DNA of 21,526 bases from a virus (taxonomy: Duplodnaviria; Heunggongvirae; Uroviricota; Caudoviricetes). Under the pieces are notes generated by a model, which saw nothing but the letters and a program-made list of their open reading frames with translations, ran no database searches and was not told the origin of the DNA. Below, in pieces: positions 1 through 21,526 of this stretch. The stretch lies in the IMG/VR virus record IMGVR_UViG_2778261179_000011; one strand, given 5' to 3'. How positions within the stretch are numbered: position 1 is the first letter of the stretch; each line of letters opens with the position of its first letter. A program made the translations under genes and the position numbers.

Positions 1-142
1 TGACAAAGTCATCGGGCATTATCTGAACATAAAACACTATCAATAAGTTGGAGTCATTACCAAACAAAAGAACGAGTTAAAAGTTGAAATTACTGGAGAT
101 AAGAAACATCCTAGTCTAGGGGATAAAATCCGCGCTGCGGCG

Positions 143-457
143 TTGCATCTCGAAATCCCCACACTGATTGAAGACAATATATGTCCTCAATTCTGGGCTA
201 TCAAGAACGATGGGCAATGGTCTGACATCCCAGAAGCTATAGCCAAATATCGTAACGACTTAGTGCACCCCAAAGCGAGGATAAAATCACAGAACCAACA
301 CGCGCTTACTATTGAGATGTGGCGATTATCTGTTTGGTATCTGGAGCTCTTTATGTTGCGCTTGATTGGATATCAGGATGTCTATTCAAACAGGCTAACG
401 GCTAAATGGCTTGGTGAGGTCGAGCATGTCCCATGGGCCGGTAGCAAATCATCCTAG
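143..457 (+). CDS. Hypothetical protein, 104 aa; doubtful gene or 5'-degraded remnant
   Basis: ORF begins with TTG and has no convincing Shine-Dalgarno sequence. The same frame is open upstream to a stop at 44-46 with no ATG/GTG/TTG. No recognisable motif. Confidence 0.25.
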   Translation: MHLEIPTLIEDNICPQFWAIKNDGQWSDIPEAIAKYRNDLVHPKARIKSQNQHALTIEMWRLSVWYLELFMLRLIGYQDVYSNRLTAKWLGEVEHVPWAGSKSS

Positions 458-490
458 CAACTAATTTGCATTCTATTGCTATCGCAAGGG

Positions 491-513
491 AATTTAGCTA
501 GTTTAGCTAAATT
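491..513. promoter_or_regulatory. Perfect 10-bp inverted repeat (AATTTAGCTA-gtt-TAGCTAAATT), candidate operator
   Basis: Read directly from sequence. Lies 30 bp upstream of the ATG at 543 and overlaps an AT-rich -10-like TATAAA at 513-518. Confidence 0.35.
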
Positions 514-542
514 ATAAAAACGAGCCGTAAGCGAACATTCAG

Positions 543-782
543 ATGAACGAGCAAGAAATTTACGCACAAATCAAAAAAGCTCTGCAAGAGGCACCTCGCA
601 ATCAATACACCGCTGAGCTGCATCTGCAAATGATCAAATATGCTGATGAGCTAAAGAACATCACAGCCAAAGAGTTTTGTGAAGGGGTGGGCCTGCGGAG
701 CAGCTTTGGCACCGAATTTAGCAAAATGCGCAATCTGACTCAGCGCTTGAAAGCTGCCGGGCTCGATACAGCCAAGCTATAA
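543..782 (+). CDS. Small hypothetical protein, 79 aa; possible regulator
   Basis: ATG start, preceded by the inverted repeat at 491-513 and followed 52 bp later by hsdM. No family recognised from sequence. Confidence 0.4.
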   Translation: MNEQEIYAQIKKALQEAPRNQYTAELHLQMIKYADELKNITAKEFCEGVGLRSSFGTEFSKMRNLTQRLKAAGLDTAKL

Positions 783-834
783 CGACTCAAATTTAATCGT
801 GCCGGGCCAATGCTCGGTAATGTAAGGAACAACC

Positions 835-4643: not shown

Positions 4644-4653
4644 GGACACGAAT

Positions 4654-8086: not shown

Positions 8087-11000
8087 GTAACGTCGGCCAG
8101 CGTGAACGCATGACCCAACAGCGCATTGTTGAGCTGTTTCAAACGGATTTAGGCTACCGCTATTTAGGTAACTGGGAATACCGCGATAACAATAAAAACA
8201 TAGAAGTTGAGCTACTAACGAGCTGGCTGAAAAAGCGCGGCATAAGCGAGGCGCTGATTAATCGCGTGATTCGTCAGCTAGACAGCGCAGCGGCGCTGGG
8301 CGAAGGTAAAAAGCTCTATTACGCCAACAAAGAGGTTTATCGCCTGCTGCGTTACGGCGTGAAAGATAAAGAAGGTGCTGGCCATCTTAATGAAACCGTG
8401 TGGCTGATTGACTGGAAAAATCCAGAAGCAAACGATTTTGCCATTGCCGAAGAAGTCTCTATCAAGGGTGAAAACAAAAAATGCCCAGACATAGTGCTGT
8501 ATGTCAATGGTATCGCTCTAGGTGTGATTGAGCTGAAACGCTCTTCGGTGTCTGTCTCTGAGGGTATTCGCCAGAACCTCGATAACCAAAAGAAAGATTT
8601 TATCCGTAACTTCTTCACCACCATGCAATTGGTGATGGCGGGTAACGACACGCAAGGCTTGCGTTACGGCACGATTGAAACCCCGGAGAAGTATTATCTT
8701 GAATGGAAAGAAGAGATAGAGAACGGGTATAGCCATAAGCTCGACTTTCACCTGAGCCGCGTATGCAATAAAGCGCGTTTTTTACAGATCATCCACGATT
8801 TTATTGTTTTCGATGCGGGTATTAAAAAGACCTGTCGTCACAATCAGTTCTTTGGTATTGAAGCGGCAAAACGCCATATCGCAAGGCGTGAAGGCGGCAT
8901 TATTTGGCATACGCAAGGTTCTGGCAAAAGCCTCACTATGGTGTGGTTGGCCAAATGGATACGTGAAAATGTCAAAGACGCCCGTGTATTGATCGTGACC
9001 GATCGTACCGAGCTGGATGAGCAGATAGAAAAAGTATTCACCGGTGTTGAGGAAGATATTTATCGCACCAAAAGCGGTGCCGATTTGGTGGCGACGCTCA
9101 ATCAGCCCAACCCTTGGTTGGTATGCTCTTTAGTCCATAAATTTGGTCGGCAGTCTGATTCGGAAAACGATACCGCGACGGATGAGTTTATTGCCGAGTT
9201 AAAGAAATCCCTACCATCGGACTTTAAAGCCAAAGGCGACCTATTCGTATTTGTTGATGAATGCCACCGTACTCAATCGGGCAAGTTGCACGAAGCGATG
9301 AAGTCCATTCTGCCAGAAGCCATGTTTGTCGGCTTCACCGGCACCCCCTTGATGAAGAAAGACAAGAAAAAATCGGTTGAGGTATTTGGCCCTTACATTC
9401 ACACCTATAAGTTTGATGAAGCTGTGGCCGATGGCGTTGTGCTCGATTTACGCTACGAAGCACGAGACATCGACCAAAATGTCACGTCGCAGAAAAAGGT
9501 CGATGAATGGTTTGAAGCCAAAACTCGCGGCTTATCTCGATTAGCGAAAACCCAGTTGAAACAGAAATGGGGCACCATGCAAAAGGTGCTGTCCAGTAAA
9601 TCGCGTTTGCAGCAGATTGTGAATGATATCTTGCTGGATATGGACACTAAGCCACGCCTGATGGATGGCTACGGCAATGCCATGTTGGTCTGCTCTAGTG
9701 TCTATCAAGCTTGTAAAGCTTATGAAATGTTCAGCCAAACAGATTTAGCCGGCAAGGTGGCTATTGTCACCAGTTTTCAGCCGACCGCTGCGAGCATTAA
9801 AGGGGAAGAAACCGGTGAAGGCTTAACGGAAAAGCTCTTTAAGTACGATATTTACCGCAAAATGCTTGCGGATTACTTCGAGCAACCGGAAGACAAGGCC
9901 GCTAACCGAGTTGAAGAGTTTGAAAAAGAAGTTAAAAAACAATTTATTGATGAGCCAGGGCAAATGCGCTTGCTCATCGTGGTCGATAAGTTGCTGACTG
10001 GCTTCGACGCCCCTTCGGCTACCTATTTGTATATCGACAAACAGATGGCTGATCACAATCTGTTTCAGGCCATTTGCCGCGTGAACCGCTTGGATGGCGA
10101 TGATAAAGAATACGGTTACATCATTGACTACAAAGATCTGTTCCGCTCGTTGGATAAAGCGATTTCTGATTATACTCAAGGCGCATTTGATGGTTATGAC
10201 AAGGAAGACGTTGCAGGGCTGCTGAAAGATCGTTTAGAGCAAGCCAAGCTCGATTTGGATAATGCGCTGGAAATGGTGCGCGCCTTGTGTGAGCCGGTAA
10301 AAGCGCCACGCAACACGGAAGACTACATTTATTATTTTTGTGGTAAGTCAGGTCTGAACCAAGACGAGCTCACCGAGAAAGAAGCACTGCGTTTAACGCT
10401 TTATCAGAACGTTGCCAAACTGCTGCGTGCGTTCGCCAATATCGCCAATGAAATGCCTGATGCAGGCTATTCTGCGCAAGATGTAGACTCGATAAGAACA
10501 GAAGTGGCTCATTTTGAAAAAGTCCGTGACGAAGTAAAACTGGCCAGTGGCGATTTGGTAGAAATGAAACGCTTTGAGCCTGCGATGCGCCATTTGTTAG
10601 ATATGTATATTCGTGCGGATGACAGCGAAGTACTGATGGATTTTGAAGAGCTGGGGCTTATTGAGCTCATTGTCGAAAAAGGCGCTGATGCCGTGGAGGC
10701 TTTGCCTGATAGTATTCGCAAGAATCAGGAAGCCATGGCCGAAACCATCGAAAATAACGTGCGTAAAACCATCGTTGATGAAAACCCGGTTAACCCCAAG
10801 TATTACGAGCAAATGTCGGTGTTATTGGATGAGCTGATTGAGCTTCGTCGCCAAAAAGCGATTGAATATCAAGAGTATTTGGAAAAAATCCGCGAGCTGT
10901 CTCGTAAGGTTATACGTCCGGAGCAGACAGCGGCTAACTATCCGCCATCGATGGACTCTAATCCAAAACGCGCGTTTTACGATAATTTTGGTCAAGATGA

Positions 11001-11175
11001 ATTGCTGGCTACCAAAATAGATAGTGCCATTCGTTATACCAAAAAAGCGGATTGGGTCGGAGATCGCTTTAAGGAGCGAGAAATTGCCAATGCGGTGCGA
11101 GAAGAAACGACGGGGTATGAGGTGGATATTCAGGGTGTAATGGAATTGGCAAAAGCGCAAAAAGAGTACCATTGA
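8083..11175 (+). CDS. hsdR: Type I restriction enzyme endonuclease/translocase subunit HsdR (1030 aa)
   Basis: N-terminal PD-(D/E)xK nuclease motif (PDIVLYVNGIALGVIELK). SF2 helicase motifs: Walker A HTQGSGKSLT (about 8911-8940), motif II FVDECHR (about 9253-9273), motif III FTGTP. ATGA overlap with the upstream gene. Confidence 0.9.
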   Translation: MSNVGQRERMTQQRIVELFQTDLGYRYLGNWEYRDNNKNIEVELLTSWLKKRGISEALINRVIRQLDSAAALGEGKKLYYANKEVYRLLRYGVKDKEGAGHLNETVWLIDWKNPEANDFAIAEEVSIKGENKKCPDIVLYVNGIALGVIELKRSSVSVSEGIRQNLDNQKKDFIRNFFTTMQLVMAGNDTQGLRYGTIETPEKYYLEWKEEIENGYSHKLDFHLSRVCNKARFLQIIHDFIVFDAGIKKTCRHNQFFGIEAAKRHIARREGGIIWHTQGSGKSLTMVWLAKWIRENVKDARVLIVTDRTELDEQIEKVFTGVEEDIYRTKSGADLVATLNQPNPWLVCSLVHKFGRQSDSENDTATDEFIAELKKSLPSDFKAKGDLFVFVDECHRTQSGKLHEAMKSILPEAMFVGFTGTPLMKKDKKKSVEVFGPYIHTYKFDEAVADGVVLDLRYEARDIDQNVTSQKKVDEWFEAKTRGLSRLAKTQLKQKWGTMQKVLSSKSRLQQIVNDILLDMDTKPRLMDGYGNAMLVCSSVYQACKAYEMFSQTDLAGKVAIVTSFQPTAASIKGEETGEGLTEKLFKYDIYRKMLADYFEQPEDKAANRVEEFEKEVKKQFIDEPGQMRLLIVVDKLLTGFDAPSATYLYIDKQMADHNLFQAICRVNRLDGDDKEYGYIIDYKDLFRSLDKAISDYTQGAFDGYDKEDVAGLLKDRLEQAKLDLDNALEMVRALCEPVKAPRNTEDYIYYFCGKSGLNQDELTEKEALRLTLYQNVAKLLRAFANIANEMPDAGYSAQDVDSIRTEVAHFEKVRDEVKLASGDLVEMKRFEPAMRHLLDMYIRADDSEVLMDFEELGLIELIVEKGADAVEALPDSIRKNQEAMAETIENNVRKTIVDENPVNPKYYEQMSVLLDELIELRRQKAIEYQEYLEKIRELSRKVIRPEQTAANYPPSMDSNPKRAFYDNFGQDELLATKIDSAIRYTKKADWVGDRFKEREIANAVREETTGYEVDIQGVMELAKAQKEYH

Positions 11176-11888
11176 TGCCTAAGGTAGAAATTGGTTCTAT
11201 TGCGATGCAGTTAAATCGTAAGGCAATTAAAAACCTTCATATCAGCGTGTTGCCACCTGATGGGCGTGTGCGTGTTTCTGCTCCTGAATCTATGACAGAA
11301 ACCGCAATCCGTATGGCAGTGATCAGCCGCATTCCTTGGATCAAGAAACAGCAGAGTGTTTTTGCCAAACAACCTCGCCAATCTGATCGAGCAATGGTTA
11401 GCGGTGAATGTCATTACCTGTGGGGCAGGCGTTATCGTCTGAATCTTATCGAGCGTTCCGGAAAGCATGAAATCAAGCTAGGTCGTGGTCGATTGCATTT
11501 ATATGTCAATCCCGCAACAACGCTTGAGAACAAGGCACTGGTACTGAACTCATATTATCGAGATGCACTTAAAACGCGAATCGCTGAGTTATTGCCTGTT
11601 TGGGAAGATAAGATCGGCGTTAAAGCTGTAGATTGGGGAATTAAAAAGATGAAAACCAAGTGGGGCAGCTGCAATATTCAGGCAAAGCGCATTTGGCTAA
11701 ATTTAGAGCTTGCTAAAAAGCCACCGGAGTGTTTGGAGTACATCCTAGTGCATGAATTGGTGCACTTGCTTGAGCGTAATCACAATGAACGCTTCAAGGG
11801 GTATATGGACAAGCTACTTCCCGATTGGCGAGAGCGCAGAGATTTGTTGAATCGGATGCCCTTGGCGCACAACGATTGGGTGTACTAG
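11175..11888 (+). CDS. M48-family / YgjP-like (DUF45) zinc-dependent hydrolase, ~237 aa
   Basis: HExxH zinc-binding motif HELVHLLE (11751-11774) preceded by WGSC. ATG at 11175 overlaps the hsdR stop (TGATG); the track ORF starts 3 nt earlier at TTG 11172. This family is commonly found directly downstream of hsdR. Confidence 0.75.
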   Translation: MPKVEIGSIAMQLNRKAIKNLHISVLPPDGRVRVSAPESMTETAIRMAVISRIPWIKKQQSVFAKQPRQSDRAMVSGECHYLWGRRYRLNLIERSGKHEIKLGRGRLHLYVNPATTLENKALVLNSYYRDALKTRIAELLPVWEDKIGVKAVDWGIKKMKTKWGSCNIQAKRIWLNLELAKKPPECLEYILVHELVHLLERNHNERFKGYMDKLLPDWRERRDLLNRMPLAHNDWVY

Positions 11889-12284
11889 GAAAATTATGCA
11901 GAGTTTGCATGGTTAGCCTGATTATGTATGTGGCGCGTAATTTGAGATAAACTTGATAGTAAAAGCGGGAAATGGATTTCATTTCTCCGATATTTTGCTC
12001 AGGTGCTGTCGCTAAAAGTGTCAAGATTCTATCTTTACGCTTGGCGGCCAATACTCCCGCAGTACCTACCCAGAAAATAGCCAATATTGGGATCAACTTA
12101 ACAGTTTTGGCTTTGTTTATTATAAAAACCAGCACTTTCAATTAGTTGAATGGTTTATTCGCTAGTTTATGTGAACTACCGTTCTAACGAATAGAACACC
12201 CCGAGATATTGCTTTCGCTGGTGGGAAAACATTCCTAACCAACCTGAAGGCGCAATACATCAGTTTTTAAGCAGAGAAAAGACT

Positions 12285-13079
12285 ATGACAGCACAAAATA
12301 CTAAAACAATTCAATACCGCCTGCGTAATGGCCAGAGTGTCGAAGTGACCATCAATAATGATGGTGTACCTGGCGAAAAGGTTTCTATCTCTGATCTGGC
12401 TATCGAAAAAACCATCATGTGCCACCTTGGCTTTACTGAAGAAGTGAGCAAAAAGCATGGTGTAGCTATCTGGCGCACAATGGATACTGGAATGCGCAGA
12501 TTCATTACTGCTCGTACCCCTGGTATGACCATGATGGACCTCATACAGATTGCGCCGCTGTTTGAGTGTGAACCTTTGGATGTATTCAGCAATCCAGCTA
12601 TCTGCCAGCAGTTATATGGTGAGATGAAACTCGCGGTTACCCCCATTGTGCTGCATGAAGGATCGCTTGCTGGCGTATGGAAAGTAGAGCGAATTTCAAG
12701 CTACATGCCATTCCACATCCATGTCAACGGCGTAATCGCAGGTGAAAATCAACCTGTTTCAGTTACAAAGTCAGACCTCAATCGCGCAATTCTTGAAGCA
12801 AGTTGTCGAGTTATCGGCCTGGGCAAACAGTCTTATGTTTCCTTCCCGGCTGGTCCTGAAGGCCCGGCAGAAATTCTGATTATGGATGCCGATCTGCTCT
12901 GGCAAATACAGTTTCTGATTGGCAAAAGCATCATCCGCGCTGAAGAACTCGATCAGTACATTACCTGCACGATGACGGATGAAGTCAAAAGTGTGGCTAT
13001 AGCCAATGCCCGGAAGCTATGTCGTGCTGCATTAACAGAACTGCAAGAAAACACCACGGAAGAAGTGGAAAGCGATTAA
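12285..13079 (+). CDS. Hypothetical protein, 264 aa, function unknown
   Basis: Clean ATG ORF after a ~400-bp AT-rich intergenic region; ends 3 bp before a strong hairpin terminator. No motif recognised. Confidence 0.5.
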   Translation: MTAQNTKTIQYRLRNGQSVEVTINNDGVPGEKVSISDLAIEKTIMCHLGFTEEVSKKHGVAIWRTMDTGMRRFITARTPGMTMMDLIQIAPLFECEPLDVFSNPAICQQLYGEMKLAVTPIVLHEGSLAGVWKVERISSYMPFHIHVNGVIAGENQPVSVTKSDLNRAILEASCRVIGLGKQSYVSFPAGPEGPAEILIMDADLLWQIQFLIGKSIIRAEELDQYITCTMTDEVKSVAIANARKLCRAALTELQENTTEEVESD

Positions 13080-13081
13080 AA

Positions 13082-13105
13082 AAAATCCCGCCGATTGGCG
13101 GGATT
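13082..13105. terminator. Bidirectional rho-independent terminator (10-bp perfect stem AAATCCCGCC / GGCGGGATTT, 4-nt loop)
   Basis: Read directly from sequence. Minus-strand orientation is followed by a U-run of 8 or more (A-run 13076-13084 on plus); plus-strand orientation by TTTCTTC. Sits between convergent genes 12285-13079 (+) and 13109-13426 (-). Confidence 0.65.
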
Positions 13106-13108
13106 TCT

Positions 13109-13426
13109 TCAATATACGATCTGGTCTACATGATCCCCAAAATCATCGTCGTCATCGTCGTCGTCCTCATCGCCACCCTCTACTGCTGGCCAATCAACAA
13201 ACCAGCCAGCGTAAAGATGCAGCGTTCGGAGAACATCACTTGCGGGAGCATCAAGGGTGTTAACGAATCCCATATAGCTATTGGGATTTGCCCCAGCTAT
13301 GGCTTCAGCGATCATGTCCTCGGTAATGTCACCGGAGATAATGCTTAAACGCCCGGAAACTTCTTCATTATCATCAAATTCGATAATGGCATCTCCGCCT
13401 AATGGCGCTGCGATTTTAATCTGCAT
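13109..13426 (-). CDS. Highly acidic small protein, 105 aa, with a D8 tract (DEDDDDDDDDFGD); last gene of the dar-like operon
   Basis: About 26 Asp/Glu against about 3 Lys/Arg. Poly-Asp encoded by a (GAY)n run at 13142-13171. Overlaps the upstream 995-aa gene by 11 bp. Confidence 0.5.
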   Translation of the reverse strand: MQIKIAAPLGGDAIIEFDDNEEVSGRLSIISGDITEDMIAEAIAGANPNSYMGFVNTLDAPASDVLRTLHLYAGWFVDWPAVEGGDEDDDDDDDDFGDHVDQIVY

Positions 13427-16403
13427 TATTTAGCTCCTTTGCCACACCTAATAACAGTTCCAGCAATCCGTCACCATTCATCAGTGATGCGGCAGCGGCC
13501 TCTTTGTCATGATACAACTGAAGAGCCATAGAGAATACTTCCGTTGCTGACGTTTTGGAAATAGTCGGGGATTTCTGCCGAATTTTCCCAGTGTTACTTA
13601 CTGAGGCTGGCGGGTATACCTTCGCCATATAAATATTACTCAATCGAGATCTGAAGCACCATTCAGGCTTGCCACGCCCACCGATATTAACGAAAGATGG
13701 CTTATCCCCTTCAACATTGGCCTTCAGGAATGACCGGGCTTTCTCTAACAAACCAGGGTTACTGTACTCAAGATGATGACCCAGCTCGTGCCACAGTGCA
13801 CTTGCATTTTCATCGTTCAAATTGACAGCAACAACACCATTAAGATTTGCATATGCCCTTCCCTGGTGGTGAACCACCTTTGATAAGGTCGAAATTTTAC
13901 CGCCGGTCAGGCGATAAATATCAGCAAGTTCCTTGCGCAGGTCTATCCCACCATTCTGTCCAGCGCGGGCTTCTTCCACTTCTTCCGTGATAAAAGAGTC
14001 GGCCCACTCAAGAGCTTTTTCTTCAGATACGGATGAGTTGGCGATCGCACTGTTCATGGCAGATAACACTTTCTCGTGGACCGAACCCATACTTCGCTGA
14101 TTCATTTGCCAGCGTGTCTGCGGGTTATATGAGAATCGCTTAAGTAGTTGGTCAAGCTGCTCAAGTTCTTCTTCACTGACATACTTTTTAGCCTCACCAA
14201 TAATGCCAGGGAGAATATTGCCGTTAGGATTAAACGCTCGCGAAAGGAAGAGTTTCAGCGCCCCCATGCCCTCCGATGCTTCAATATCACCAATAACCCG
14301 GTTAACAATGGCCGCACTCTTCGGATTAGCATCCGCCAACGCTCTGGCTACGATTTGCAGGGACGATACGACCTCACGCTGCATATCAGTCCTGATCTCA
14401 TCAATAAACTCTGGCGTTATGCCGTGCTCTTTAAGGATATCCCTGCCTTCCGCCGTTACCCCATCGATATCACCGACATGTTTATTAACCTGACTTTGCA
14501 ATGCCTTAAATGCCTTCAGAATTCCACGGGCATCATCAGCTTTACTAACGGCCTTCCTGAATACTGGCAAGAAGTCAGAGTTAACCTCATTTTGTTGATC
14601 GGCCCACTGAATGGAGGCTTCTTTCATCTCGTCCAGAGTCAGATCACCCAACGCGGTATGGTCTGTGAATATGAGCGACAACCTCTGAACCATTTCTGCC
14701 AATGGTGATGCCGAATGCGCCGCGCTAAGGAATGCTTTCACCCTGGTTGGGCGAATGGAAAACCAGTCAATAGCTGGTGGCATATCTCCGTTTTTTATCG
14801 CCTGCGCTATCTCATCAAAGCCGTCGCGCCCAAGGGAGGATGCGTGATTTAACAATCCGCGAAGTAACGAATTGCTGATACCGAATAATCGGCACCATTT
14901 TTTTACGTCGGCAACAGGCATTCGGACAAAATGCGCAAGCACTTGTACAAGCTGCTCATCCTGGGGATCGGTGCGGGATAGCAGCCTGATCAGATGAATA
15001 ATGTCTTTGATTCCGGATGCCCGATGTAATAGCAAGCTGGTATATGGAGCAACACCGTTGTAACTACCGCCGGAAGCTGACTCGAAAAGACCGCCGGATA
15101 TCCCTTGCATACCTTCGTTTTCCAGTTCCTGAGATACCTGGCGAAGGATATCCTGTAACGACACATCACCGCCGCCAAACATATCCCCGAGCGCCTGGCC
15201 CTGGTGCTGTAACTCATCATTGATACGTTGTGCCATCAACTTAAAGGCGGTGGCCATACGCTTCGCGCTACGGTTATTCGCGACGATAAACAACGCGAGT
15301 GCTTTCACTTCCGGGGCCGTTTCGCTGAACATATCCCCCTGAGCAATAACATCGGTAATATGTTGGCCTGACTCCTTCGATTGCCTTACCAGGTCTACCG
15401 CATCTTTCAATGCAGCCAGCGCCTTTTTATCGAGGCTATCCGCTGTTTCAATGCTATCAACGATAGTTGTCACAGCCTGCTTGTGCGCTTCTCCTGATAA
15501 AGCCTGCATCTGGACAAAATCATTGGCCGCCGCATTAAGCGCCGTCAGAACATTACGCATATCCGGATCAGGTTCTTCTGCAACCATCCTTACCAAGCGC
15601 GCATCCTTATATGCCTTGGCAAAGATCGCGTTTTGTATCCGGTCAACAAGTTGCCGTGTTGGTCGCCCATCTTCAGTTACAAGTCCAGCCGCCTGTGTGG
15701 CACCAACTTGCGTCATAAATCCGCGAATAAACGCGTCATTACTGCGGCTAAGCAGATCTCCGCTTTCTGACGGGTTAAAAAGCGCCATCATCGCCGGTGT
15801 TATGCTGTCGGCATCAACAAAAGCCTTTTCACTGGCTGCCATTTCCTGAAGATCAGAAATATTTGAGTCTTTGGCAAACTGAACGCGGTCAACCTTAGTT
15901 AACCGGCGGCGCACCAGTACCGGAGCCGTCATTGATTCAACCTTTTCAGGACGTATGCCGAATTCGCTCGCATGTTCAATCAGGTACTCCCGATACCGAT
16001 CCGCATTGCCGTCCTGATAGGCTTTAATGATCCCCATGGTTCGTCCATTACCTGACTCAACGGCATTGTCCTCACCAATTATCGGCGCTCCATGGCTGGA
16101 TAAACCGGAGTCGGTAAGCTGAGCAGGCCGCAAATCCTTGGATATCTGGTTAACCTGAAGAATACTGGATGCGCGGGTCCGGTCGCGCGGCTGAAGTTCC
16201 TGGGGATAGTCCGGATTAATTTTCCCGTCCAGAGTATTGGATACCAAAAGAGCTGAGGCATCGACGATATCAAACGCTGTTTTTACCTCGTCTCCCTTCG
16301 CTGTCACCACATACGAAACCCGCCCATAATCGGGCAGGTTCTTTAGCAGCTCGATCAGCGTTTCTATGCTGGTGGCCATTACCACCTGATCGCTTAAGCT
16401 CAT
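13416..16403 (-). CDS. ddrB: DdrB-like large protein, 995 aa, with an HExxH zincin motif near the C-terminus
   Basis: ATG start. HELGHH encoded at 13773-13790 (verified by reverse-complementing the DNA). Size and position after the ddrA-like and darA-like genes match the P1 darA operon as I recall it. Confidence 0.6.
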   Translation of the reverse strand: MSLSDQVVMATSIETLIELLKNLPDYGRVSYVVTAKGDEVKTAFDIVDASALLVSNTLDGKINPDYPQELQPRDRTRASSILQVNQISKDLRPAQLTDSGLSSHGAPIIGEDNAVESGNGRTMGIIKAYQDGNADRYREYLIEHASEFGIRPEKVESMTAPVLVRRRLTKVDRVQFAKDSNISDLQEMAASEKAFVDADSITPAMMALFNPSESGDLLSRSNDAFIRGFMTQVGATQAAGLVTEDGRPTRQLVDRIQNAIFAKAYKDARLVRMVAEEPDPDMRNVLTALNAAANDFVQMQALSGEAHKQAVTTIVDSIETADSLDKKALAALKDAVDLVRQSKESGQHITDVIAQGDMFSETAPEVKALALFIVANNRSAKRMATAFKLMAQRINDELQHQGQALGDMFGGGDVSLQDILRQVSQELENEGMQGISGGLFESASGGSYNGVAPYTSLLLHRASGIKDIIHLIRLLSRTDPQDEQLVQVLAHFVRMPVADVKKWCRLFGISNSLLRGLLNHASSLGRDGFDEIAQAIKNGDMPPAIDWFSIRPTRVKAFLSAAHSASPLAEMVQRLSLIFTDHTALGDLTLDEMKEASIQWADQQNEVNSDFLPVFRKAVSKADDARGILKAFKALQSQVNKHVGDIDGVTAEGRDILKEHGITPEFIDEIRTDMQREVVSSLQIVARALADANPKSAAIVNRVIGDIEASEGMGALKLFLSRAFNPNGNILPGIIGEAKKYVSEEELEQLDQLLKRFSYNPQTRWQMNQRSMGSVHEKVLSAMNSAIANSSVSEEKALEWADSFITEEVEEARAGQNGGIDLRKELADIYRLTGGKISTLSKVVHHQGRAYANLNGVVAVNLNDENASALWHELGHHLEYSNPGLLEKARSFLKANVEGDKPSFVNIGGRGKPEWCFRSRLSNIYMAKVYPPASVSNTGKIRQKSPTISKTSATEVFSMALQLYHDKEAAAASLMNGDGLLELLLGVAKELNNAD

Positions 16404-16415
16404 CCCTGTTACGCC

Positions 16416-16781
16416 TTATGCTGCCTCTTTAATGTTGGCGGCTATCCATGCCGCCGTGTGCTGTTTAACCTGGTCCAGGTCGATGTATGTGCCAACATAT
16501 TGACTCAAGTCCTGCAAGGTACCGATAAATGCATCTGTGCTCTGATCGACGAATTTATCAGCCAGGAAATCAGCAACCAGTTTTGGCACACCATCATGTT
16601 CCGAAGGTTGTTTTTCATCGCCACTACCACCGCCGGACGCGCCGTACCCCATCTGTTGCATGATCTGGTCAATTTCATCGCTGATATCCAGCAACTCCAT
16701 GCCACTCGCGGTGGCCGCTTTGGACATCAGAGCATCCAACTTATCGCTGAGATCCATTAACTCAATAGCTGATAGTGTCAT
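16416..16781 (-). CDS. ddrA: DdrA-like small acidic protein, 121 aa
   Basis: ATG overlaps the stop of the upstream 639-aa gene (ATGA). Called by size and operon position only. Confidence 0.5.
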   Translation of the reverse strand: MTLSAIELMDLSDKLDALMSKAATASGMELLDISDEIDQIMQQMGYGASGGGSGDEKQPSEHDGVPKLVADFLADKFVDQSTDAFIGTLQDLSQYVGTYIDLDQVKQHTAAWIAANIKEAA

Positions 16782-18697
16782 GCCGCTACCCCCGCTTTCT
16801 GGATTGCTACCAACAGATCAGCCAGGTGGCGAGCTGCGCCGTTAACCAGCTCTTCGTTTTCCTCAAAACGTCCGGCAGCCTGAAGGGCTGCAATCGCTTC
16901 CCGGACATTGCCCCGGGCGTTACGGATCTCCGCCATGTCAGTGCTTTGCATATCCATTACGTTATTGAGATATTCAATGGCTTTATTAGCCTCTGCATCT
17001 GCTTCGCTAACCGTTTCATCAGGCTGTGCCGGGGCCGGTTCTGGCTGAGTAATCTCACCGACTTCGGCCTGCAATGCATTGATCATGCTCTGCACCATTT
17101 TCTCGGTGCCAGCGCCCCCAGGAAACGCAATATTGGGGAAAGTTTTTTGAAACTGAGTTTTCAGCATTACGCGGAACTCGTCTGGTGAGCTGGTGGCCAG
17201 CTCCAGAGCTTTTTGTGCATATTTGCCAAACGGACCATTAGTAAGTGTCTTCGCCAGGAAGTCGAAAGAATCCTCGCGAGGCAATAACTTCAGGTCGTAC
17301 TCACTCATTTGCTGATCAGAAAGCGGGGTATCGTAAGTAGCAATGCCGTAGCGTGCATATTCATAATACGGGTCACCTTCATCAGGGCGCGGCAGAATTG
17401 CTTTGTTACCTTCAGGTATTGCGCCAGGGGCCGCCGGACGCATTTGCAGGGCATATCGATATGCACCTACAGAGACTTCTGGTTCAGGCGAAGAGCTACC
17501 GGTATCCTCCGCTGGTTCAGGTTCGACGTTTTCCGGTTTATGTTCTTCTGGTTGGACCTGGTATTCCGATACATTACCCGCTTTATAGGCTTTAAACAGC
17601 TTGCCGATCGCATCTGCCATGTCCACACCCTGTATGGATTTAGCCTTGATCATGTACACGCTGCCATCCGAATCGGTTAACTGGATATACCCTTCGCCGT
17701 CCTCAATGAATTGCTTCATTGATGCACCATTACTGAGCGTCACTTCCCCGTTCATATGCATACGATTTTTGATACTGGCAAGGCGATCCATCATCGCGCG
17801 AGAGTGTCCACCAGTCATCCCCGCAGGAGCAATGGTATCGCGCCCACCAGTGCGATTGAGCTGATCAATCTCCGTCTGCAAACGCTCATTCTCTTCATAA
17901 AGAGAATCCGCTTCCGATGCAACAGCGTTAATTTTCTGCTCCAGATCTGCCTTCTGCCCTTCTACCGCTGCCACCTGATCCACGAGGTCGCTCATGGCAT
18001 CCTCTTTCTGGTCACTGTCAGCCTGTAGTTGGGTTATTTCATCAACAAGGGCTTTTTTCTTCTTCTGCGCACGCTGGAATTTTGCCGAGTTTTTCTCTGC
18101 AAGGTTGGCAAGTTTCATGGTGACCTGCGCCAGCGTCATATCACGTCCACTCATCGGAGCAACGGTATGAGTAACGTCTTTTTTATTCAGTAAGAACTGG
18201 AAAGCAATCAGCGTATCGCTATTGGTGATCCGGTTTTCCGCTGTCGGGCTATGAAACAGAATGCTGATAGTCTGACCATCACTGAGCGGAATAATGGCTG
18301 GCAGGACTGGCAGCCCGTTAACGTTACGTGCCCGGCCAATTTCAGCGCCGCCGATCGCGCGCGCGCCGCTCTGGGCCACATCCCCCGTTTTATCACTCCC
18401 CGCAGATATTCCGGTACCATTCAGCTTCTGGTTCAATGCCCGGACAAATGCCTGCATGGTCCGGTGTAACTGCAAACGAGTAGAACTAATCGCCTCCAGT
18501 AAATCCGTAGCACACCAGTGGATCGGCGTGTCATAGAAGAACGTAGCCTCGATTTCTTCCAGGGTGTTGGATTCCGTCATCAGATAGCGGTCCTCACCGG
18601 CCATTAATGCGCGATATTCATCATCAGTCACTGGCGGGGGAAGCACGTCAAGCCCAGGCTTGATCGTCACCCCTTTATTGATATTGAACTGTTCCAT
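16778..18697 (-). CDS. darA: DarA-like protein, 639 aa (antirestriction / capsid morphogenesis component in P1)
   Basis: ATG with RBS AGGAAATTAAC; central coiled-coil segment. Contains a segment paralogous to the upstream 203-aa protein (shared ...DGQ...I...NSAKFQ...), the relationship that defines P1 hdf as a homologue of a DarA fragment. Confidence 0.65.
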   Translation of the reverse strand: MEQFNINKGVTIKPGLDVLPPPVTDDEYRALMAGEDRYLMTESNTLEEIEATFFYDTPIHWCATDLLEAISSTRLQLHRTMQAFVRALNQKLNGTGISAGSDKTGDVAQSGARAIGGAEIGRARNVNGLPVLPAIIPLSDGQTISILFHSPTAENRITNSDTLIAFQFLLNKKDVTHTVAPMSGRDMTLAQVTMKLANLAEKNSAKFQRAQKKKKALVDEITQLQADSDQKEDAMSDLVDQVAAVEGQKADLEQKINAVASEADSLYEENERLQTEIDQLNRTGGRDTIAPAGMTGGHSRAMMDRLASIKNRMHMNGEVTLSNGASMKQFIEDGEGYIQLTDSDGSVYMIKAKSIQGVDMADAIGKLFKAYKAGNVSEYQVQPEEHKPENVEPEPAEDTGSSSPEPEVSVGAYRYALQMRPAAPGAIPEGNKAILPRPDEGDPYYEYARYGIATYDTPLSDQQMSEYDLKLLPREDSFDFLAKTLTNGPFGKYAQKALELATSSPDEFRVMLKTQFQKTFPNIAFPGGAGTEKMVQSMINALQAEVGEITQPEPAPAQPDETVSEADAEANKAIEYLNNVMDMQSTDMAEIRNARGNVREAIAALQAAGRFEENEELVNGAARHLADLLVAIQKAGVAA

Positions 18698-18698
18698 G

Positions 18699-19310
18699 TT
18701 AATTTCCTGCTTTCAGTTGCTTAAGACGGCGTTTGAGTTCGCCATTTCGGGCCTTTTCGTTATTGAGTCGGCCTGTCTCCTTATCCAGCTTCGCCCGCAA
18801 ATCAGTGATCTGCTGTTGATTGAAAGACACCGAGTTCTGCGCTGATTTATAAGCGGCAACCACCTGAGCATTCCGCTGTTTTGCCTCTTGCAGGCGCTGA
18901 AAGTTGGATTTTACTGCCGGTTTCTTGTCTACCGGATTGGCAACACGTTTCGCTTTGGCGATCAGTGATTTCTGGAATTTTGCGGAGTTTTTGCGGGCCG
19001 CTTGCCCCATGACGGTACCAAGCGTCTTGATATCCGGCGACTGAGCGTTAGGAATAGCTTTTCCATTCAGCCTCACAGACGATATATCGCCAGTATCGTT
19101 TACCTGTATGGCAAGAATTTGTCCGTCGTTAAGAACCAGCTTTGCGGTTTTAACTTTAACGCCATCTTTCGTTGTTGCGCGGTTGCTGGAGTCAACCTCA
19201 ATTACCGTAACACCGGTTTTATTGATCGCCGCGATAAGGGATTTCAGCCCCTTTTCATTAACCTGGTCAAAATCGACCGTTGCATACTTATTTTTCGTCA
19301 TCTGACACAT
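18699..19310 (-). CDS. hdf: Hdf-like protein (homologue of DarA fragment), 203 aa
   Basis: Shares the NSAKFQ-containing segment with the 639-aa protein. Its stop TAA abuts the darA-like ATG. Lysine-rich coiled-coil C-terminus. Confidence 0.6.
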   Translation of the reverse strand: MCQMTKNKYATVDFDQVNEKGLKSLIAAINKTGVTVIEVDSSNRATTKDGVKVKTAKLVLNDGQILAIQVNDTGDISSVRLNGKAIPNAQSPDIKTLGTVMGQAARKNSAKFQKSLIAKAKRVANPVDKKPAVKSNFQRLQEAKQRNAQVVAAYKSAQNSVSFNQQQITDLRAKLDKETGRLNNEKARNGELKRRLKQLKAGN

Positions 19311-19731
19311 CCTGTGCGAGATTTATTACGTAACTTCTGCGGATTTGCTGAGTAACAGGGAAAATCCGATACAACGGGTTAATGAACGAGTCGCCATGCG
19401 TAACCATGACGTTGAAATGCCACAGTCGCTCTCCTTTACCCATATATTCAGTGGGTATGTACAACCATTCACTGTTTTCGCCCTGTTCAGCCGACGTCAA
19501 ACAACGTTGTTCGCCTTCAATCACTGTCGTCGGCTTCTGAACATCGCGGATCCAATATCTGACCGTTGCGCCGCGCAAAAACGGGAATTTAGACCGGTAT
19601 TTGAACGGCACCCGGATGAAACCCGGTTTAATTTCCACATCACCAAGTTCTAAATGCGTGATGTCCTTGCGTTTTAGCAAATAGCGATCGGCTAAGGCTA
19701 ACGCAAGAACGCATACACCCCAGCCAATCAT
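19288..19731 (-). CDS. lydB: LydB-like protein, 147 aa (lysis regulator/antiholin in P1)
   Basis: Starts 4 bp inside the end of the holin-like gene and overlaps hdf by 23 bp. Called by size and position only. Confidence 0.45.
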   Translation of the reverse strand: MIGWGVCVLALALADRYLLKRKDITHLELGDVEIKPGFIRVPFKYRSKFPFLRGATVRYWIRDVQKPTTVIEGEQRCLTSAEQGENSEWLYIPTEYMGKGERLWHFNVMVTHGDSFINPLYRIFPVTQQIRRSYVINLAQDVSDDEK

Positions 19732-20057
19732 TTCCCGCCTCCCTTTTTCACCAAACTTGTAAGAACATTCAGAATGCTATCGATATTCACTCGTTTCATC
19801 CCTGAAATCACCTCATGACCGTTATTGCTGGCTATCGTTACCATTAAGTACGTAATTGATAACTCCCAGCCCTCGTGTTGCCCCAATAGGTACGCCACCG
19901 CGCCAGCTGTCACTGCAACAAAGATCTCCGTAACCAATCCCAACAAATTGCCAGACTGGCGACCGTCTCGGACATCCATCAGGAACGTGCCTATCCCACC
20001 AATTACTGAAAGCAGGAGCGCAATAGCAACTGGAGCTAATTCCTGTGTGTCAAGCAC
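19728..20057 (-). CDS. lydA: LydA-like holin, 109 aa
   Basis: GTG start with a strong SD (TAGGAGGGAACTT-GTG). Two or three hydrophobic helices (VAIALLLSVIGGIGTFL; LLGLVTEIFVAVTAGAVAYLLG) and a charged C-terminus, typical of a small phage holin. Confidence 0.55.
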   Translation of the reverse strand: MLDTQELAPVAIALLLSVIGGIGTFLMDVRDGRQSGNLLGLVTEIFVAVTAGAVAYLLGQHEGWELSITYLMVTIASNNGHEVISGMKRVNIDSILNVLTSLVKKGGGK

Positions 20058-20131
20058 AAGTTCCCTCCTACGTTGTCAGGAGGTAATGGTATGCAAAGTA
20101 ACTTCTCAACCGGTTATGTTGCATAAGAGAC

Positions 20132-20395
20132 TTACCTATTCAACCGACTTTTGGAACCTTCAATAATAAGCCTGCTATTGGCGCTGAAAATAAGAACCAT
20201 GCAGCTCTGAAGGCTTTCATTCATGTCCTTATATTCCGCGAGATACATGCCAATAAAGCCAGCAAGTACGGCGGAAATACATTCGGCCAGCAATTTCTTG
20301 CATGAAGACTCGTAACGGTTTTCACATAGCCCACTCAAATACGAATACACCCCACCAAGAAGGGATAACATCACGATATGTACATAAAATGTCAT
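20132..20395 (-). CDS. Small membrane protein, 87 aa (two predicted transmembrane helices), holin-like
   Basis: ATG start; hydrophobic segments IVMLSLLGGVYSYLSGL and AVLAGFIGMYLAEY. First gene downstream of the 435-bp intergenic region after the invertase. Confidence 0.4.
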   Translation of the reverse strand: MTFYVHIVMLSLLGGVYSYLSGLCENRYESSCKKLLAECISAVLAGFIGMYLAEYKDMNESLQSCMVLIFSANSRLIIEGSKSRLNR

Positions 20396-20466
20396 TTTTT
20401 ACCTATACAACAGTAAGTTGAACAACATTTGAGAACGGTATGCACTTTGTGATTTCCACACACACT

Positions 20467-20485
20467 GGTTTTGTTAATTAAAACC
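20467..20485. promoter_or_regulatory. Inverted repeat GGTTTT-gttaatt-AAAACC in the lyd/dar operon upstream region
   Basis: Read directly from sequence; 6-bp arms, 7-nt AT-rich spacer, about 70 bp upstream of the 87-aa gene start. Confidence 0.25.
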
Positions 20486-20691
20486 TGTGGCTTGCAATAA
20501 ATAACGATAGTGGGCAAAAAATATGCTAATAGGCTATGTACGCATATAGACAAATGAACAAAACACAGCTATGCAGTGAAAAGCACTTGAAAGCGCAGGA
20601 TGTGAGCTAATTTTTGCGAATAAGGCGAGCAGCAAAAAGGCTGGGCACCCTGGGTTAAAAAAGGTTCTGCGTATGCTTTCCAGAGGTGATA

Positions 20692-20710
20692 CCCTAGTCT
20701 CGGACTAGGG
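20692..20710. repeat. Perfect hairpin/palindrome CCCTAGTC-tcg-GACTAGGG
   Basis: Read directly from sequence; 8-bp arms. A related sequence, CCTAGTCTAGGGG, occurs at 110-122. Confidence 0.4.
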
Positions 20711-20830
20711 ACAACATTTCGAGAACAGTTTTCATTAGCGGTCAGCAGGCGCTAGATACATCGAATTGATGTGCCGCGCGATAAATGTACCTATTCTATC
20801 AAGATAAATTACACCGACGCGGCATTAGAA

Positions 20831-21403
20831 TTACAGCTCAGATTGAGTTTGGCGCTTCTCTACAGGATGATAACGATAAATCGTCGATACACCGATATCG
20901 TAAATAATTGCCAACTGTTTCCTGCTGTAGCCATTTTCGATCAACCTCGCTATTTGCTCATGTTGTTCTTTTGTCAACTTCGGGCGACGTCCGCCAATGC
21001 GTCCCTGTTCGCGTGCAGCTGCCAGTCCGGCCAGTGTTCTCTCAACAATTAATTCACGTTCCATTTCTGCTAAAGCACCCATGACATGAAAAAAGAAACG
21101 CCCCATGGGTGTTGATGTGTCAATACTGTCTGTCAGACTACGGAAATTAACACCTTTTTCCCGCAACTCCTCTATAAGCGTGATAAGGTGTTTCATACTT
21201 CTGCCAAGCCTATCCAGCTTCCAGACAACCAGCGTATCTCCTTCTGATAACGTTCTGAGCAGCTTTTTCAAGCCTGGTCTGGCTGACTTTGTTCCGCTTA
21301 TTTTATCTTCAAAAATCAGTTCACATCCTGCGCAGTTCAGTGCATTTCTTTGTAAATCTGTGTTTTGGTCATTTGTTGACACACGAATGTAGCCAATTTG
21401 CAT
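20831..21403 (-). CDS. cin: Serine DNA invertase of the Cin/Gin/Hin/Pin family (190 aa from ATG 21403)
   Basis: N-terminus MQIGYIRVSTNDQNTDLQRNAL (catalytic Ser), then DTLVVWKLDRLGRSMKHLI and GRFFFHVMGALAEMERELI, and a C-terminal HTH: near-identical to Gin/Cin as I recall them. SD AAAGAGG 8 nt upstream of ATG 21403; the track start at 21412 is an upstream TTG. Confidence 0.9.
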   Translation of the reverse strand: MQIGYIRVSTNDQNTDLQRNALNCAGCELIFEDKISGTKSARPGLKKLLRTLSEGDTLVVWKLDRLGRSMKHLITLIEELREKGVNFRSLTDSIDTSTPMGRFFFHVMGALAEMERELIVERTLAGLAAAREQGRIGGRRPKLTKEQHEQIARLIENGYSRKQLAIIYDIGVSTIYRYHPVEKRQTQSEL

Positions 21404-21457
21404 GAAAAACAACCTCTTTGTTTAGTTAAAAATACATCGTTGGTATAGGTAGGGATT

Positions 21458-21483
21458 AAGACTAAAACGTTGGTTTGGGGGAA
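21458..21483. other. Candidate 26-bp invertase crossover site (cix/gix/hix-like)
   Basis: Plus strand AAGACTAAAACG-TT-GGTTTGGGGGAA; reverse complement TTCCCCCAAACC-AA-CGTTTTAGTCTT, fitting the family half-site consensus TTnTCnnAAACC on one side and partially on the other. Begins 55 bp upstream of the invertase ATG. Confidence 0.4.
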
Positions 21484-21526
21484 GGCTCAGCATTGCCTGT
21501 TGGCGTACCTGTTCCGTGGCCCTCAG

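What the first reader, a model, noticed from the sequence alone, without database searches (positions are those of the whole stretch)
20831..21526. Cin/Gin-family invertase with a candidate crossover site at the window edge
The invertase is transcribed leftward and a 26-bp site with a strong TTCCCCCAAACC half-site lies 55 bp upstream of its start (21458-21483). By analogy with the Gin/G-segment and Cin/C-segment arrangements, an invertible tail-fibre host-range segment should begin just beyond 21483 and mostly fall outside this window.
Basis: partly seen in the sequence, partly recalled or inferred. Interest (0 to 1): 0.55.

Follow-up and report, generated by a model that had tools for sequence, protein, structure and literature searches.

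The report
Min invertase and tail-fibre shuffling site
This is the already described Min DNA-invertase of p15B-type P1-like phage-plasmids with its first crossover site, marking the start of a many-cassette invertible region that swaps the tip of the phage tail fibre; it is real but ordinary.

Summary
Window 20831-21403 (-) encodes an intact 190-aa serine invertase: 74% identical to P1 Cin, 73.5% to Mu Gin. A 26-bp 12-2-12 site lies at 21458-21483, 54 nt upstream of its ATG. The last 55 nt of the window encode GLGEGSALPVGVPVPWPS, the conserved start of a tail-fibre tip cassette.

The window comes from a P1-like phage-plasmid. The arrangement is not P1's Cin/C-segment. It is the Min multiple-inversion system first described on plasmid p15B. 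The invertase is antiparallel to a truncated, stop-containing cin remnant (20434-20699). The spacing matches the p15B map recorded in the P1 GenBank entry to the nucleotide.

In ≥99.3%-identical E. coli plasmids, the DNA right of the site holds 8-10 head-to-tail tip cassettes of about 470 bp. Each starts with a copy of the site. They sit in two opposed blocks that end at the constant tail-fibre gene S. The same cassettes occur in both orientations and many orders. At least six different cassettes abut the fixed invertase-proximal half-site.

The window's own right flank could not be seen. The system is already known and interest is low.

The parts
20831..21403 (-). min-type serine DNA invertase gene (190 aa; catalytic Ser9; wild-type-like His106 and Met114)
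   Evidence: Translation. Pfam Resolvase plus HTH_7. 74% identity to P1 Cin. 73.5% identity to Mu Gin, PDB 4m6f/3uj3, E 4e-92. Protein identical to RefSeq WP_001165547.1 in relatives L002, L007, L010 and L013. Exact sequence lies in a cluster carrying the UniRef label DNA-invertase Q05517_ECOLX.
21309..21379 (-). candidate recombinational (Fis) enhancer inside the 5' part of the invertase gene; function inferred only
   Evidence: Nucleotides 19-90 of the gene are 58/72 identical to the annotated P1 cin enhancer. The P1 GenBank record notes 83% identity of this cin segment to p15B nt 6463-6533, which maps exactly onto window 21379-21309. Coding constraint confounds this, and no strict Fis consensus was found.
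21458..21483 (-). 26-bp crossover (mix-type) site: fixed outer half 21458-21469, central dinucleotide 21470-21471, inner half 21472-21483 that travels with the cassette
   Evidence: In 12 of the 13 fetched relatives the outer half AAGACTAAAACG is constant next to the invertase, while the inner half (G/A variant) and the cassette behind it change. The thirteenth, L004, carries a one-base homopolymer difference in the inner half. The site matches the family consensus quoted in PMC4134206.
21472..21526 (+). first 55 nt of a promoterless tail-fibre tip cassette (reads GLGEGSALPVGVPVPWPS), cut by the window end; most likely cassette type A
   Evidence: Direct translation of the sequence. The 55 nt are identical only to type-A cassettes (WP_001408994.1) in relatives, wherever and in whichever orientation they lie. 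Full cassettes carry the Pfam Collar domain PF07484.
20434..20699 (+). psi-cin: remnant of the P1 cin promoter region plus the first ~59 codons (ATG 20523); catalytic Ser codon is TAG (20547-20549), second stop TGA (20577-20579)
   Evidence: 93% nucleotide identity to P1 31570-31836. The P1 record notes the same remnant in p15B at nt 7147-7408.
20811..20825 (-). terminator-like hairpin just after the invertase stop codon (consensus match only)
   Evidence: L002 3698-3684 on the minus strand, equal to window 20825-20811. The number of such matches in the region is not above shuffled expectation.

Best explanation
Window 20434-21526 is the invertase end of a Min-type multiple DNA inversion system of a P1-like phage-plasmid, the system first described on E. 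coli plasmid p15B.

Shown: the Min invertase is a small serine recombinase of the Hin/Gin/Cin/Pin/Min family.

Inferred from family knowledge: it binds 26-bp sites, cuts at their central 2-bp core, and exchanges strands between sites in inverted orientation, probably with the help of a Fis-bound enhancer inside its own 5' coding region.

Shown: the site at 21458-21483 is the fixed boundary of the invertible region. Its outer half stays with the invertase gene. Its inner half is the first 12 nt of a promoterless cassette of about 470 bp that encodes an alternative C-terminal, Collar-domain tip of tail-fibre protein S.

Shown in relatives: 8-10 such cassettes, each beginning with a site, form two opposed blocks between min and the constant 5' part of S. 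Any inversion between a site in one block and a site in the other swaps the inner ends of the two blocks. This places a different cassette in frame behind S.

Inferred: the phage progeny thereby carry different receptor-binding tips, that is, different host ranges.

Inferred for this molecule: the array itself lies off the window, and inversion was not observed in reads.
For: 1. Invertase identity.

2. p15B-type layout. An intact invertase lies antiparallel to a dead cin remnant. Using the p15B coordinates written in the P1 GenBank record, psi-cin 7147-7408, the min enhancer-like stretch 6463-6533 and lydC 7483-7638 map onto window 20434-20695, 21309-21379 and 20204-20359 with no offset.

3. 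Source. The window region is 99.3-99.7% identical to about 170 E. coli plasmids of about 97 kb. There the site is followed by genes annotated 'phage tail protein'.

4. Sites in relatives. Each cassette starts with [outer 12 nt]-TT-GGTTT(G/A)GGGGAA. The outer half is AAGACTAAAACG next to min, TTCTTGATTACC at the S constant junction, and GGCATAAAAACG (holding the previous cassette's stop codon) internally.

5. Shuffling. Signed cassette orders differ in every plasmid with a clean assembly, for example:
- L002: A+B+C+D+E+|F-G-H-I-
- L011: G+H+B+A+F+|E-I-C-D-
- L010: G+H+B+C+F+|E-A-D-
The cassette fused to S is I, D, D, C, B, G or E. The cassette next to min is A, G, H, I, L, J or D.

6. Invariants predicted by inversion-only exchange all hold. 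All + cassettes lie on the min side and all - cassettes on the S side. E and F-tfa always form the convergent centre, in either orientation.

7. Exchange at the site. The type-A-specific 55-nt leader is found exactly (0 mismatches) behind three kinds of outer half-site and in both orientations. Identity breaks within the 8 nt left of the central TT.

8. Isomer count. A tail-swap model gives 240 isomers for six cassettes. From my own knowledge, that is the number published for p15B.

9. Literature. Min is summarised in PMC6109161 as a serine-recombinase shufflon generating variable tail fibres. A Min-like invertase in reverse orientation is reported in P1-like plasmid pJIE250-3 in PMC6906374.
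Against: The window stops 55 nt past the crossover point. No partner site, cassette array or S gene of this very molecule was seen. No public record matching the whole window was found.

Differences between plasmids show that rearrangement has happened in the lineage, not that it is ongoing here.

Some relatives have arrays full of frameshifted fragments (L001, L003, L009, L014), so decay is possible.

Cassette leaders share about 200 nt, so RecA-dependent exchange could contribute. Some cassettes are mosaics in that leader (types H and L).

The p15B Min protein sequence itself (X62121) could not be retrieved for a direct comparison.

Enhancer function is inferred from 81% identity within coding sequence only.
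Confidence: 0.86

Rival explanations
1. A simple two-state switch as in Mu G or P1 C: one inverted partner site a few kb to the right, with two opposed tail-fibre C-terminal arms.
For: This is the commonest layout in the family. According to PMC6906374, the P1-like plasmid pJIE250-3 has a Min-like invertase with only one tail-fibre gene plus 2 inverted repeats, so reduced versions exist. The window's own right flank is unseen.
Against: All 13 relatives fetched with ≥98.5% identity to window 20400-21526 carry multi-cassette arrays, intact or degraded. The psi-cin plus antiparallel invertase layout is that of p15B, which from my own knowledge has six sites (map).
Confidence: 0.07
2. A frozen relic: invertase and site are intact, but the array in this molecule is decayed or no longer inverts, so the tail fibre is fixed.
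For: Several relatives have arrays annotated as frameshifted or truncated fragments (L001, L003, L009, L014). IS elements sit inside one array (L007). PMC6906374 argues that the switch is impaired in some P1-like plasmids.
Against: The invertase protein is identical, with no substitutions, across all four relatives compared. The site is perfect. Clean assemblies show intact cassettes in many different orders. The frameshifts may be consensus artefacts of mixed isomers in long-read assemblies; this is an inference.
Confidence: 0.05
3. The permutations seen among plasmids arise mainly by RecA-dependent homologous recombination between the ~200-nt conserved cassette leaders. On this view the 26-bp site and the invertase play a minor role.
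For: Leaders are 85-98% identical inverted repeats of 100-250 nt. Some cassettes combine one leader haplotype with another cassette's variable part (types H versus L).
Against: Homology between junction types starts at the central dinucleotide of the site, not at a variable point in the leader. The A-specific leader stays linked to the A variable part in five of the seven relatives scanned and breaks exactly at the site. An intact dedicated invertase is conserved next to the array.
Confidence: 0.02

Closest known systems
Min multiple DNA inversion system of E. coli 15T- plasmid p15B (Iida et al. 1990; Sandmeier et al. 1990, 1991, 1992; sequence X62121/ECP15BG)
   Same: Both sit on a P1-related plasmid prophage. 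In both, the intact invertase is antiparallel to a truncated psi-cin, and the spacing of lydC, psi-cin and the enhancer-like segment is identical. Both have sites of the same type. In both, a constant S gene with repeated segments is fused to alternative short 3' cassettes. The inversion-only model reproduces the 240 isomers recalled from the p15B papers.
   Different: From my own knowledge p15B has six sites and cassettes in 3.5 kb. The relatives examined here have 8-10 cassettes, and the region in L002 is about 1.5 kb longer than the p15B map implies. Direct protein identity to p15B Min could not be computed because the sequence was not retrievable.
Cin/C-segment of phage P1 and Gin/G-segment of phage Mu
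   Same: Same recombinase family: 74% identity to Cin and 73.5% to Gin. Same 26-bp site architecture. Same biological target, the variable C-terminus of the tail fibre, and in P1 the same genomic position between the lyd/dar genes and S.
   Different: Those systems have two sites bounding one segment of 3-4.2 kb with two long Sv+U arms. Here there are many sites and short Collar-domain cassettes, and only one cassette has an assembly-protein gene. Here the invertase points away from the invertible DNA, whereas P1 cin points towards it, and the cin gene itself is dead.
R64-type shufflon (Rci)
   Same: Both use several invertible segments to give alternative C-terminal ends to one surface-recognition protein. 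Both allow exchange only between inverted sites.
   Different: The R64 system uses a tyrosine recombinase (Rci) and sfx sites, and its target is the PilV pilus adhesin. Here the enzyme is a serine invertase and the target is a phage tail fibre.

Membership tests
Din family of serine DNA invertases (Hin/Gin/Cin/Pin/Min) | Protein of about 190 aa with an N-terminal resolvase catalytic domain carrying the Ser nucleophile near position 9-10, and a C-terminal HTH | tested here: met
   Pfam Resolvase 3-135 and HTH_7 138-180.
Din family of serine DNA invertases (Hin/Gin/Cin/Pin/Min) | High sequence identity to characterised members | tested here: met
   74% identity to P1 Cin over 186 aa. 73.5% identity to Mu Gin over 185 aa, E 4e-92. 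Resolvases score far lower (E 1e-31).
Din family of serine DNA invertases (Hin/Gin/Cin/Pin/Min) | 26-bp crossover site: two imperfect 12-bp inverted halves (…AAACC / GGTTT…) around a 2-bp core | tested here: met
   TTCCCCCAAACC-AA-CGTTTTAGTCTT at 21458-21483. The core motif is enriched over chance. It agrees with the consensus and examples in PMC4134206.
Din family of serine DNA invertases (Hin/Gin/Cin/Pin/Min) | Partner site in inverted orientation on the same molecule | not testable with these tools
   There is none in the window, and the expected position is off the right end. In relatives, 1-8 inverted partners are present.
Din family of serine DNA invertases (Hin/Gin/Cin/Pin/Min) | Fis-dependent recombinational enhancer within the 5' part of the invertase gene | tested here: inconclusive
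   58/72 identity to the annotated cin enhancer. This is coding sequence and no strict Fis consensus was found. Fis binding cannot be tested here.
Din family of serine DNA invertases (Hin/Gin/Cin/Pin/Min) | Both orientations of the segment occur | not testable with these tools
   No reads are available for the source. Across relatives the same cassettes occur in both orientations.
Min system of p15B | Intact invertase antiparallel to an adjacent truncated cin (psi-cin) | tested here: met
   psi-cin lies at 20434-20699 (+) with two in-frame stops. The invertase lies at 20831-21403 (-).
Min system of p15B | Collinearity with the published p15B sequence map | tested here: met
   p15B coordinates given in the P1 GenBank record map onto lydC, psi-cin and the enhancer-like stretch of the window with zero offset (computed).
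Min system of p15B | Cluster of at least 6 crossover sites that fuse alternative 3' cassettes to a constant tail-fibre 5' part | not testable with these tools
   The array is off the window. Clean relatives have 8-10 cassettes. The constant S has Phage_fiber_2 repeats and the cassettes have the Collar domain.
Min system of p15B | Protein identity to p15B Min (X62121) | not tested
   The sequence was not retrievable. The exact protein belongs to a cluster labelled with UniRef representative Q05517_ECOLX 'DNA-invertase', whose origin I could not verify.
P1 Cin/C-segment (two-site switch) | Functional cin gene reading towards a 4.2-kb segment with Sv/U and Sv'/U' arms | tested here: not met
   cin is reduced to a 5' remnant whose catalytic Ser codon has changed to TAG. 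Relatives carry short cassettes instead of Sv/U arms.
R64-type shufflon | Tyrosine recombinase Rci acting on sfx sites | tested here: not met
   The recombinase is of the serine/resolvase type.

The most novel reading that the evidence does not exclude
The only mildly new reading is this. In this widespread lineage of E. coli P1-like phage-plasmids, the Min array has grown from the six cassettes of p15B to 8-10. Cassettes are sometimes duplicated or interrupted by an IS. This gives 8-10 alternative receptor-binding tips and, for a nine-cassette array, 80,640 DNA isomers, more for ten. Recent surveys of P1-like phage-plasmids treat the region simply as a 'variable region'. The array may also cause the frequent 'frameshifted' annotations and contig breaks there. 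This concerns the relatives' arrays, not anything visible in the window.
Probability: 0.6. Interest if true: 0.3.

Novelty: already known. Interest (0 to 1): 0.15.

Why it matters
The finding mainly improves annotation. Hundreds of E. coli P1-like plasmids label this gene only as 'recombinase family protein' and the cassettes as 'phage tail protein' or pseudogenes. Recognising the Min system has three practical consequences:
- It explains why this region is hypervariable, why it assembles badly, and why contigs such as this one end there.
- It warns that the tail-fibre tip, and hence the host range, read from one assembly is only one of many states of the same phage-plasmid.
- It matters for predicting the spread of resistance genes carried by P1-like elements.

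It does not open a new biological question.

Tried and rejected
- Searched for the window's own continuation: the whole window against complete E. coli genomes and PLSDB, and window 12000-21526 against PLSDB. No record holds the whole window. The best covers 89% at 97.1% and lacks the min end. The right flank therefore had to be inferred from relatives.
- Tried to read the original p15B papers and two key secondary sources: PMC53420, PMC206102, the Johnson review PMC4384473 and the P1 genome paper PMC523184. None is held. What I state about six sites and 240 isomers is from my own knowledge.
- Tried to fetch pJIE250-3 (MN510445) to link the protein to '98.5% Min p15B'. It is not in the collections.
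- The promoter and terminator consensus scan around the invertase gave no more hits than shuffles, so no promoter claim is made.
- The strict Fis-consensus scan of the 5' coding region was uninformative.
- Considered whether the invertase could act on the type I hsdS gene in the same window. Rejected: there is no second site or half-site anywhere in the window.
- Considered a tyrosine-recombinase shufflon. Rejected by Pfam.
- Large protein-database, structure-prediction and fold searches were not run, because identity was already settled by near-identical annotated records.

Full report
**1. The observation**

The minus strand of window 20831-21403 is an open reading frame starting at ATG 21403, preceded by AAGAGG. 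It encodes 190 aa beginning MQIGYIRVSTNDQ. Pfam finds a resolvase catalytic domain (E 2e-51) and the resolvase HTH_7 domain (E 3e-15).

The 26-mer TTCCCCCAAACC-AA-CGTTTTAGTCTT is at 21458-21483 on the minus strand, 54 nt from the ATG.
- It is unique in the window at up to 3 mismatches, against 0 expected.
- The family core AAACSNNSGTTT occurs twice against 0.08 expected. The other copy, inside hsdR, has no half-site similarity.
- No second half-site exists in the window.

On the plus strand, 21472-21526 reads GLGEGSALPVGVPVPWPS.

**2. Where the window comes from**

Window 20400-21526 is 99.3-99.7% identical to plasmids of about 91-101 kb in E. coli. 169 of 5,426 complete genomes hold at least 80% of it. 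The features under the match are annotated 'recombinase family protein | phage tail protein'.

The rest of the window has two parts:
- The right part carries the P1 dar/lyd genes: ddrB-ParB domain protein at 13416-16403, DarA at 16778-18697, and holins.
- The left 12 kb is a type I restriction-modification operon with two DUF262/GmrSD genes. It is 100% identical to chromosomal loci.

The window is therefore a P1-like phage-plasmid. No record in the searchable collections holds the whole window.

**3. Which invertase it is**

The protein is 74% identical to P1 Cin and 73.5% identical to Mu Gin, whose structures 4m6f and 3uj3 are the best PDB matches at E 4e-92. It is not cin.

Immediately to its left, on the opposite strand, window 20434-20699 is 93% identical to the P1 cin promoter region and the first ~59 codons. 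The catalytic serine codon has changed to TAG, a second stop follows, and homology then ends.

The P1 GenBank record documents exactly this remnant in plasmid p15B (nt 7147-7408 of ECP15BG). It also notes an 83%-identical copy of the cin enhancer segment at p15B 6463-6533 and lydC at 7483-7638. Mapping these coordinates onto the window gives 20434-20695, 21309-21379 and 20204-20359. These fall on psi-cin, on nt 25-95 of the intact invertase gene, and inside the lydC ORF, with zero offset. The layout is that of the p15B Min system.

From my own knowledge of Sandmeier, Iida, Arber and colleagues (1990-1992):
- p15B Min acts on six crossover sites in a 3.5-kb region and gives 240 isomers.
- It fuses one of six 3' ends to a constant tail-fibre 5' part.
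- It lies next to a truncated psi-cin.

Held papers agree in outline. PMC6109161 describes Min as a serine-recombinase shufflon producing variable tail fibres. PMC6906374 reports a Min-like invertase (98.5% to p15B Min) in reverse orientation in a P1-like plasmid. PMC4134206 tabulates the family's crossover-site consensus and near-identical sites, for example GAGAGATAAACG-TT-GGTTTGGGGGAA.

**4. What lies beyond the window edge, from relatives**

I fetched the region from 13 relatives plus the homologous P1 region as reference (L001-L015).

In the clean assembly L002 (p64EVA-6) the order is:
- invertase (-)
- site
- five cassettes on the plus strand
- a tail-fibre assembly gene and three cassettes on the minus strand
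- a 793-aa tail-fibre gene whose last 143 aa are a ninth cassette

Viewed in coding direction, every cassette starts with [12-nt outer half]-TT-GGTTT(G/A)GGGGAA and reads GLGEGSALPVGVPVPWP... It ends ...RPRNIAFNYIVRAA-stop, with the stop codon lying in the outer half of the next site. The outer half takes three forms:
- AAGACTAAAACG next to the invertase
- TTCTTGATTACC at the junction with the constant part of S (…SVLDYL|GLGEGS…)
- GGCATAAAAACG or close variants internally

Cassettes are 143-169 aa and carry the Pfam Collar domain. The constant part is made of Phage_fiber_2 repeats. One cassette is followed by a Caudo_TAP assembly gene.

**5. Evidence that the site is used**

The signed orders are:

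| Locus | Order |
|---|---|
| L002 | A+B+C+D+E+ \| F-G-H-I- |
| L011 | G+H+B+A+F+ \| E-I-C-D- |
| L010 | G+H+B+C+F+ \| E-A-D- |
| L008 | H+B+D+E+ \| F-D-I-G-A-C- |
| L007 | G+E+ \| F-C-J-A-K-D-I-B- |
| L012 | I+B+D+F+ \| E-H-A-G- |
| L013 | L+G+B+H+L+I+F+ \| E- |

- The cassette fused to S is I, D, D, C, B, G or E.
- The cassette next to the invertase is A, G, H, I or L in these seven, J in L003 and D in L015.
- The invertase protein is identical in all four relatives compared.

Two invariants expected if only inverted sites recombine hold without exception. All + cassettes lie on the invertase side and all - cassettes on the S side. E and F-tfa, which have no site between them, always form the convergent centre, in either orientation.

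The 55 nt inside the window are identical only to the leader of type A. In five of the seven relatives scanned that A leader is found. It sits behind the min-proximal outer half in L002 and behind internal outer halves in L007, L008, L010 and L011, on the - strand in the first three of those and the + strand in L011. Identity stops within 8 nt of the central TT. This places the exchange point at the site rather than somewhere in the ~200-nt shared leader.

A simple model has each inversion swap the inner ends of the two blocks. It gives 240 reachable states for six cassettes and 80,640 for nine. L002 and L011, which hold the same nine cassettes, are seven inversions apart.

**6. Mechanism**

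Shown:
- the recombinase type
- the site architecture
- the fixed outer half and mobile inner half
- the reading-frame logic that joins S to whichever cassette follows the S-junction site
- population-level shuffling

Inferred from knowledge of Hin, Gin and Cin:
- cleavage at the central dinucleotide
- the requirement for inverted sites in a supercoiled synapse
- Fis and enhancer dependence

The enhancer-like segment (window 21309-21379) is 81% identical to the cin enhancer, but it is coding sequence. The protein keeps the wild-type-like His106 and Met114. In Gin, changes at these positions give Fis independence; this is from my own knowledge, and the 4m6f chain aligned has Val where the window protein has Met114.

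That different tips change host range is inferred from P1 and Mu and from the Collar domain. It was not tested here.

**7. Limits**

The array, partner sites and S gene of this particular molecule are not in the window. The window ends 55 nt into the repeated leader, which looks like a short-read contig break (inference).

Some relatives have arrays annotated as frameshifted fragments (L001, L003, L009, L014), so decay or assembly artefacts occur.

Direct identity to the p15B Min protein could not be computed. The exact protein sits in a cluster whose UniRef label is Q05517_ECOLX 'DNA-invertase'. I could not trace that entry.

**8. Comparison and verdict**

The element works like, and by layout is, the Min system of p15B. 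It belongs to the Hin/Gin/Cin/Pin/Min invertase family.

It is not the P1 Cin/C-segment, because cin is dead and the cassettes are different. It is not an Rci shufflon, because the enzyme is a serine recombinase, not a tyrosine recombinase.

The system has been known since 1990. The only mildly new point is that current E. coli relatives carry 8-10 cassettes instead of six. Recent surveys treat the region only as 'variable'.

Interest is low (0.15). Novelty: already known.

Noticed in passing
window 1-12187: A type I restriction-modification operon: hsdM 835-3255, hsdS 3243-4643, hsdR 8083-11175. Two DUF262/GmrSD-type genes (4654-6072, 6056-8086) are inserted between hsdS and hsdR, and a YgjP-like metallopeptidase gene follows (11172-11888). 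Window 1-12183 is 100% identical to E. coli chromosomal loci. It sits where P1 carries res/mod, and the P1-like backbone resumes at about 12183-12187.
   Followed up: partly
window 21472-21526 (right end): The window ends exactly 55 nt into the conserved cassette leader, which relatives repeat 8-10 times. This looks like a short-read contig break caused by the repeated, invertible array. The 55 nt match only cassette type A (WP_001408994.1).
   Followed up: partly
L001 10076-16000; L003 11139-14024; L009 10057-13065; L014 10570-12672; L004: In several otherwise near-identical plasmids the cassette array is annotated as a string of frameshifted or truncated 'phage tail protein' pseudogenes. This could be real decay, or a consensus artefact of assembling a mixed population of isomers from long reads.
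   Followed up: no
L007 13186-15437; L001 3769-4977: There are mobile-element insertions in relatives. An ISEc10 (IS21 family) element lies inside the cassette array of pe1-39_A and truncates one cassette. A TnpB/InsQ gene lies between the ddrB-like gene and the gene next to darA in pHeN100_02.
   Followed up: no
L008 10586 and 13150; L013 10594 and 12545: The same cassette type occurs twice within one array: type D in L008, in opposite orientations, and type L in L013, in direct orientation. Arrays therefore also change by duplication or acquisition, not only by inversion.
   Followed up: no
L002 6789-7858 and equivalents: Only one cassette type (F) is followed by a tail-fibre assembly (Caudo_TAP) gene. 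The other cassettes end directly at the next site. All cassettes share the C-terminal motif RPRNIAFNYIVRAA, which may make a separate chaperone unnecessary.
   Followed up: no
cassette types H (L002 start 7861) and L (L007 start 11638): Two cassettes have the same variable part but different leader haplotypes (PWPLETPP…SSEMYPKLAKA versus PWPSATPP…SSEKYPNLAKV). This indicates occasional homologous exchange or gene conversion within the shared leader, in addition to site-specific inversion.
   Followed up: no
window 12285-13079 (+): A 264-aa ORF with no Pfam match lies at the junction between the restriction-modification island and the P1-like backbone.
   Followed up: no
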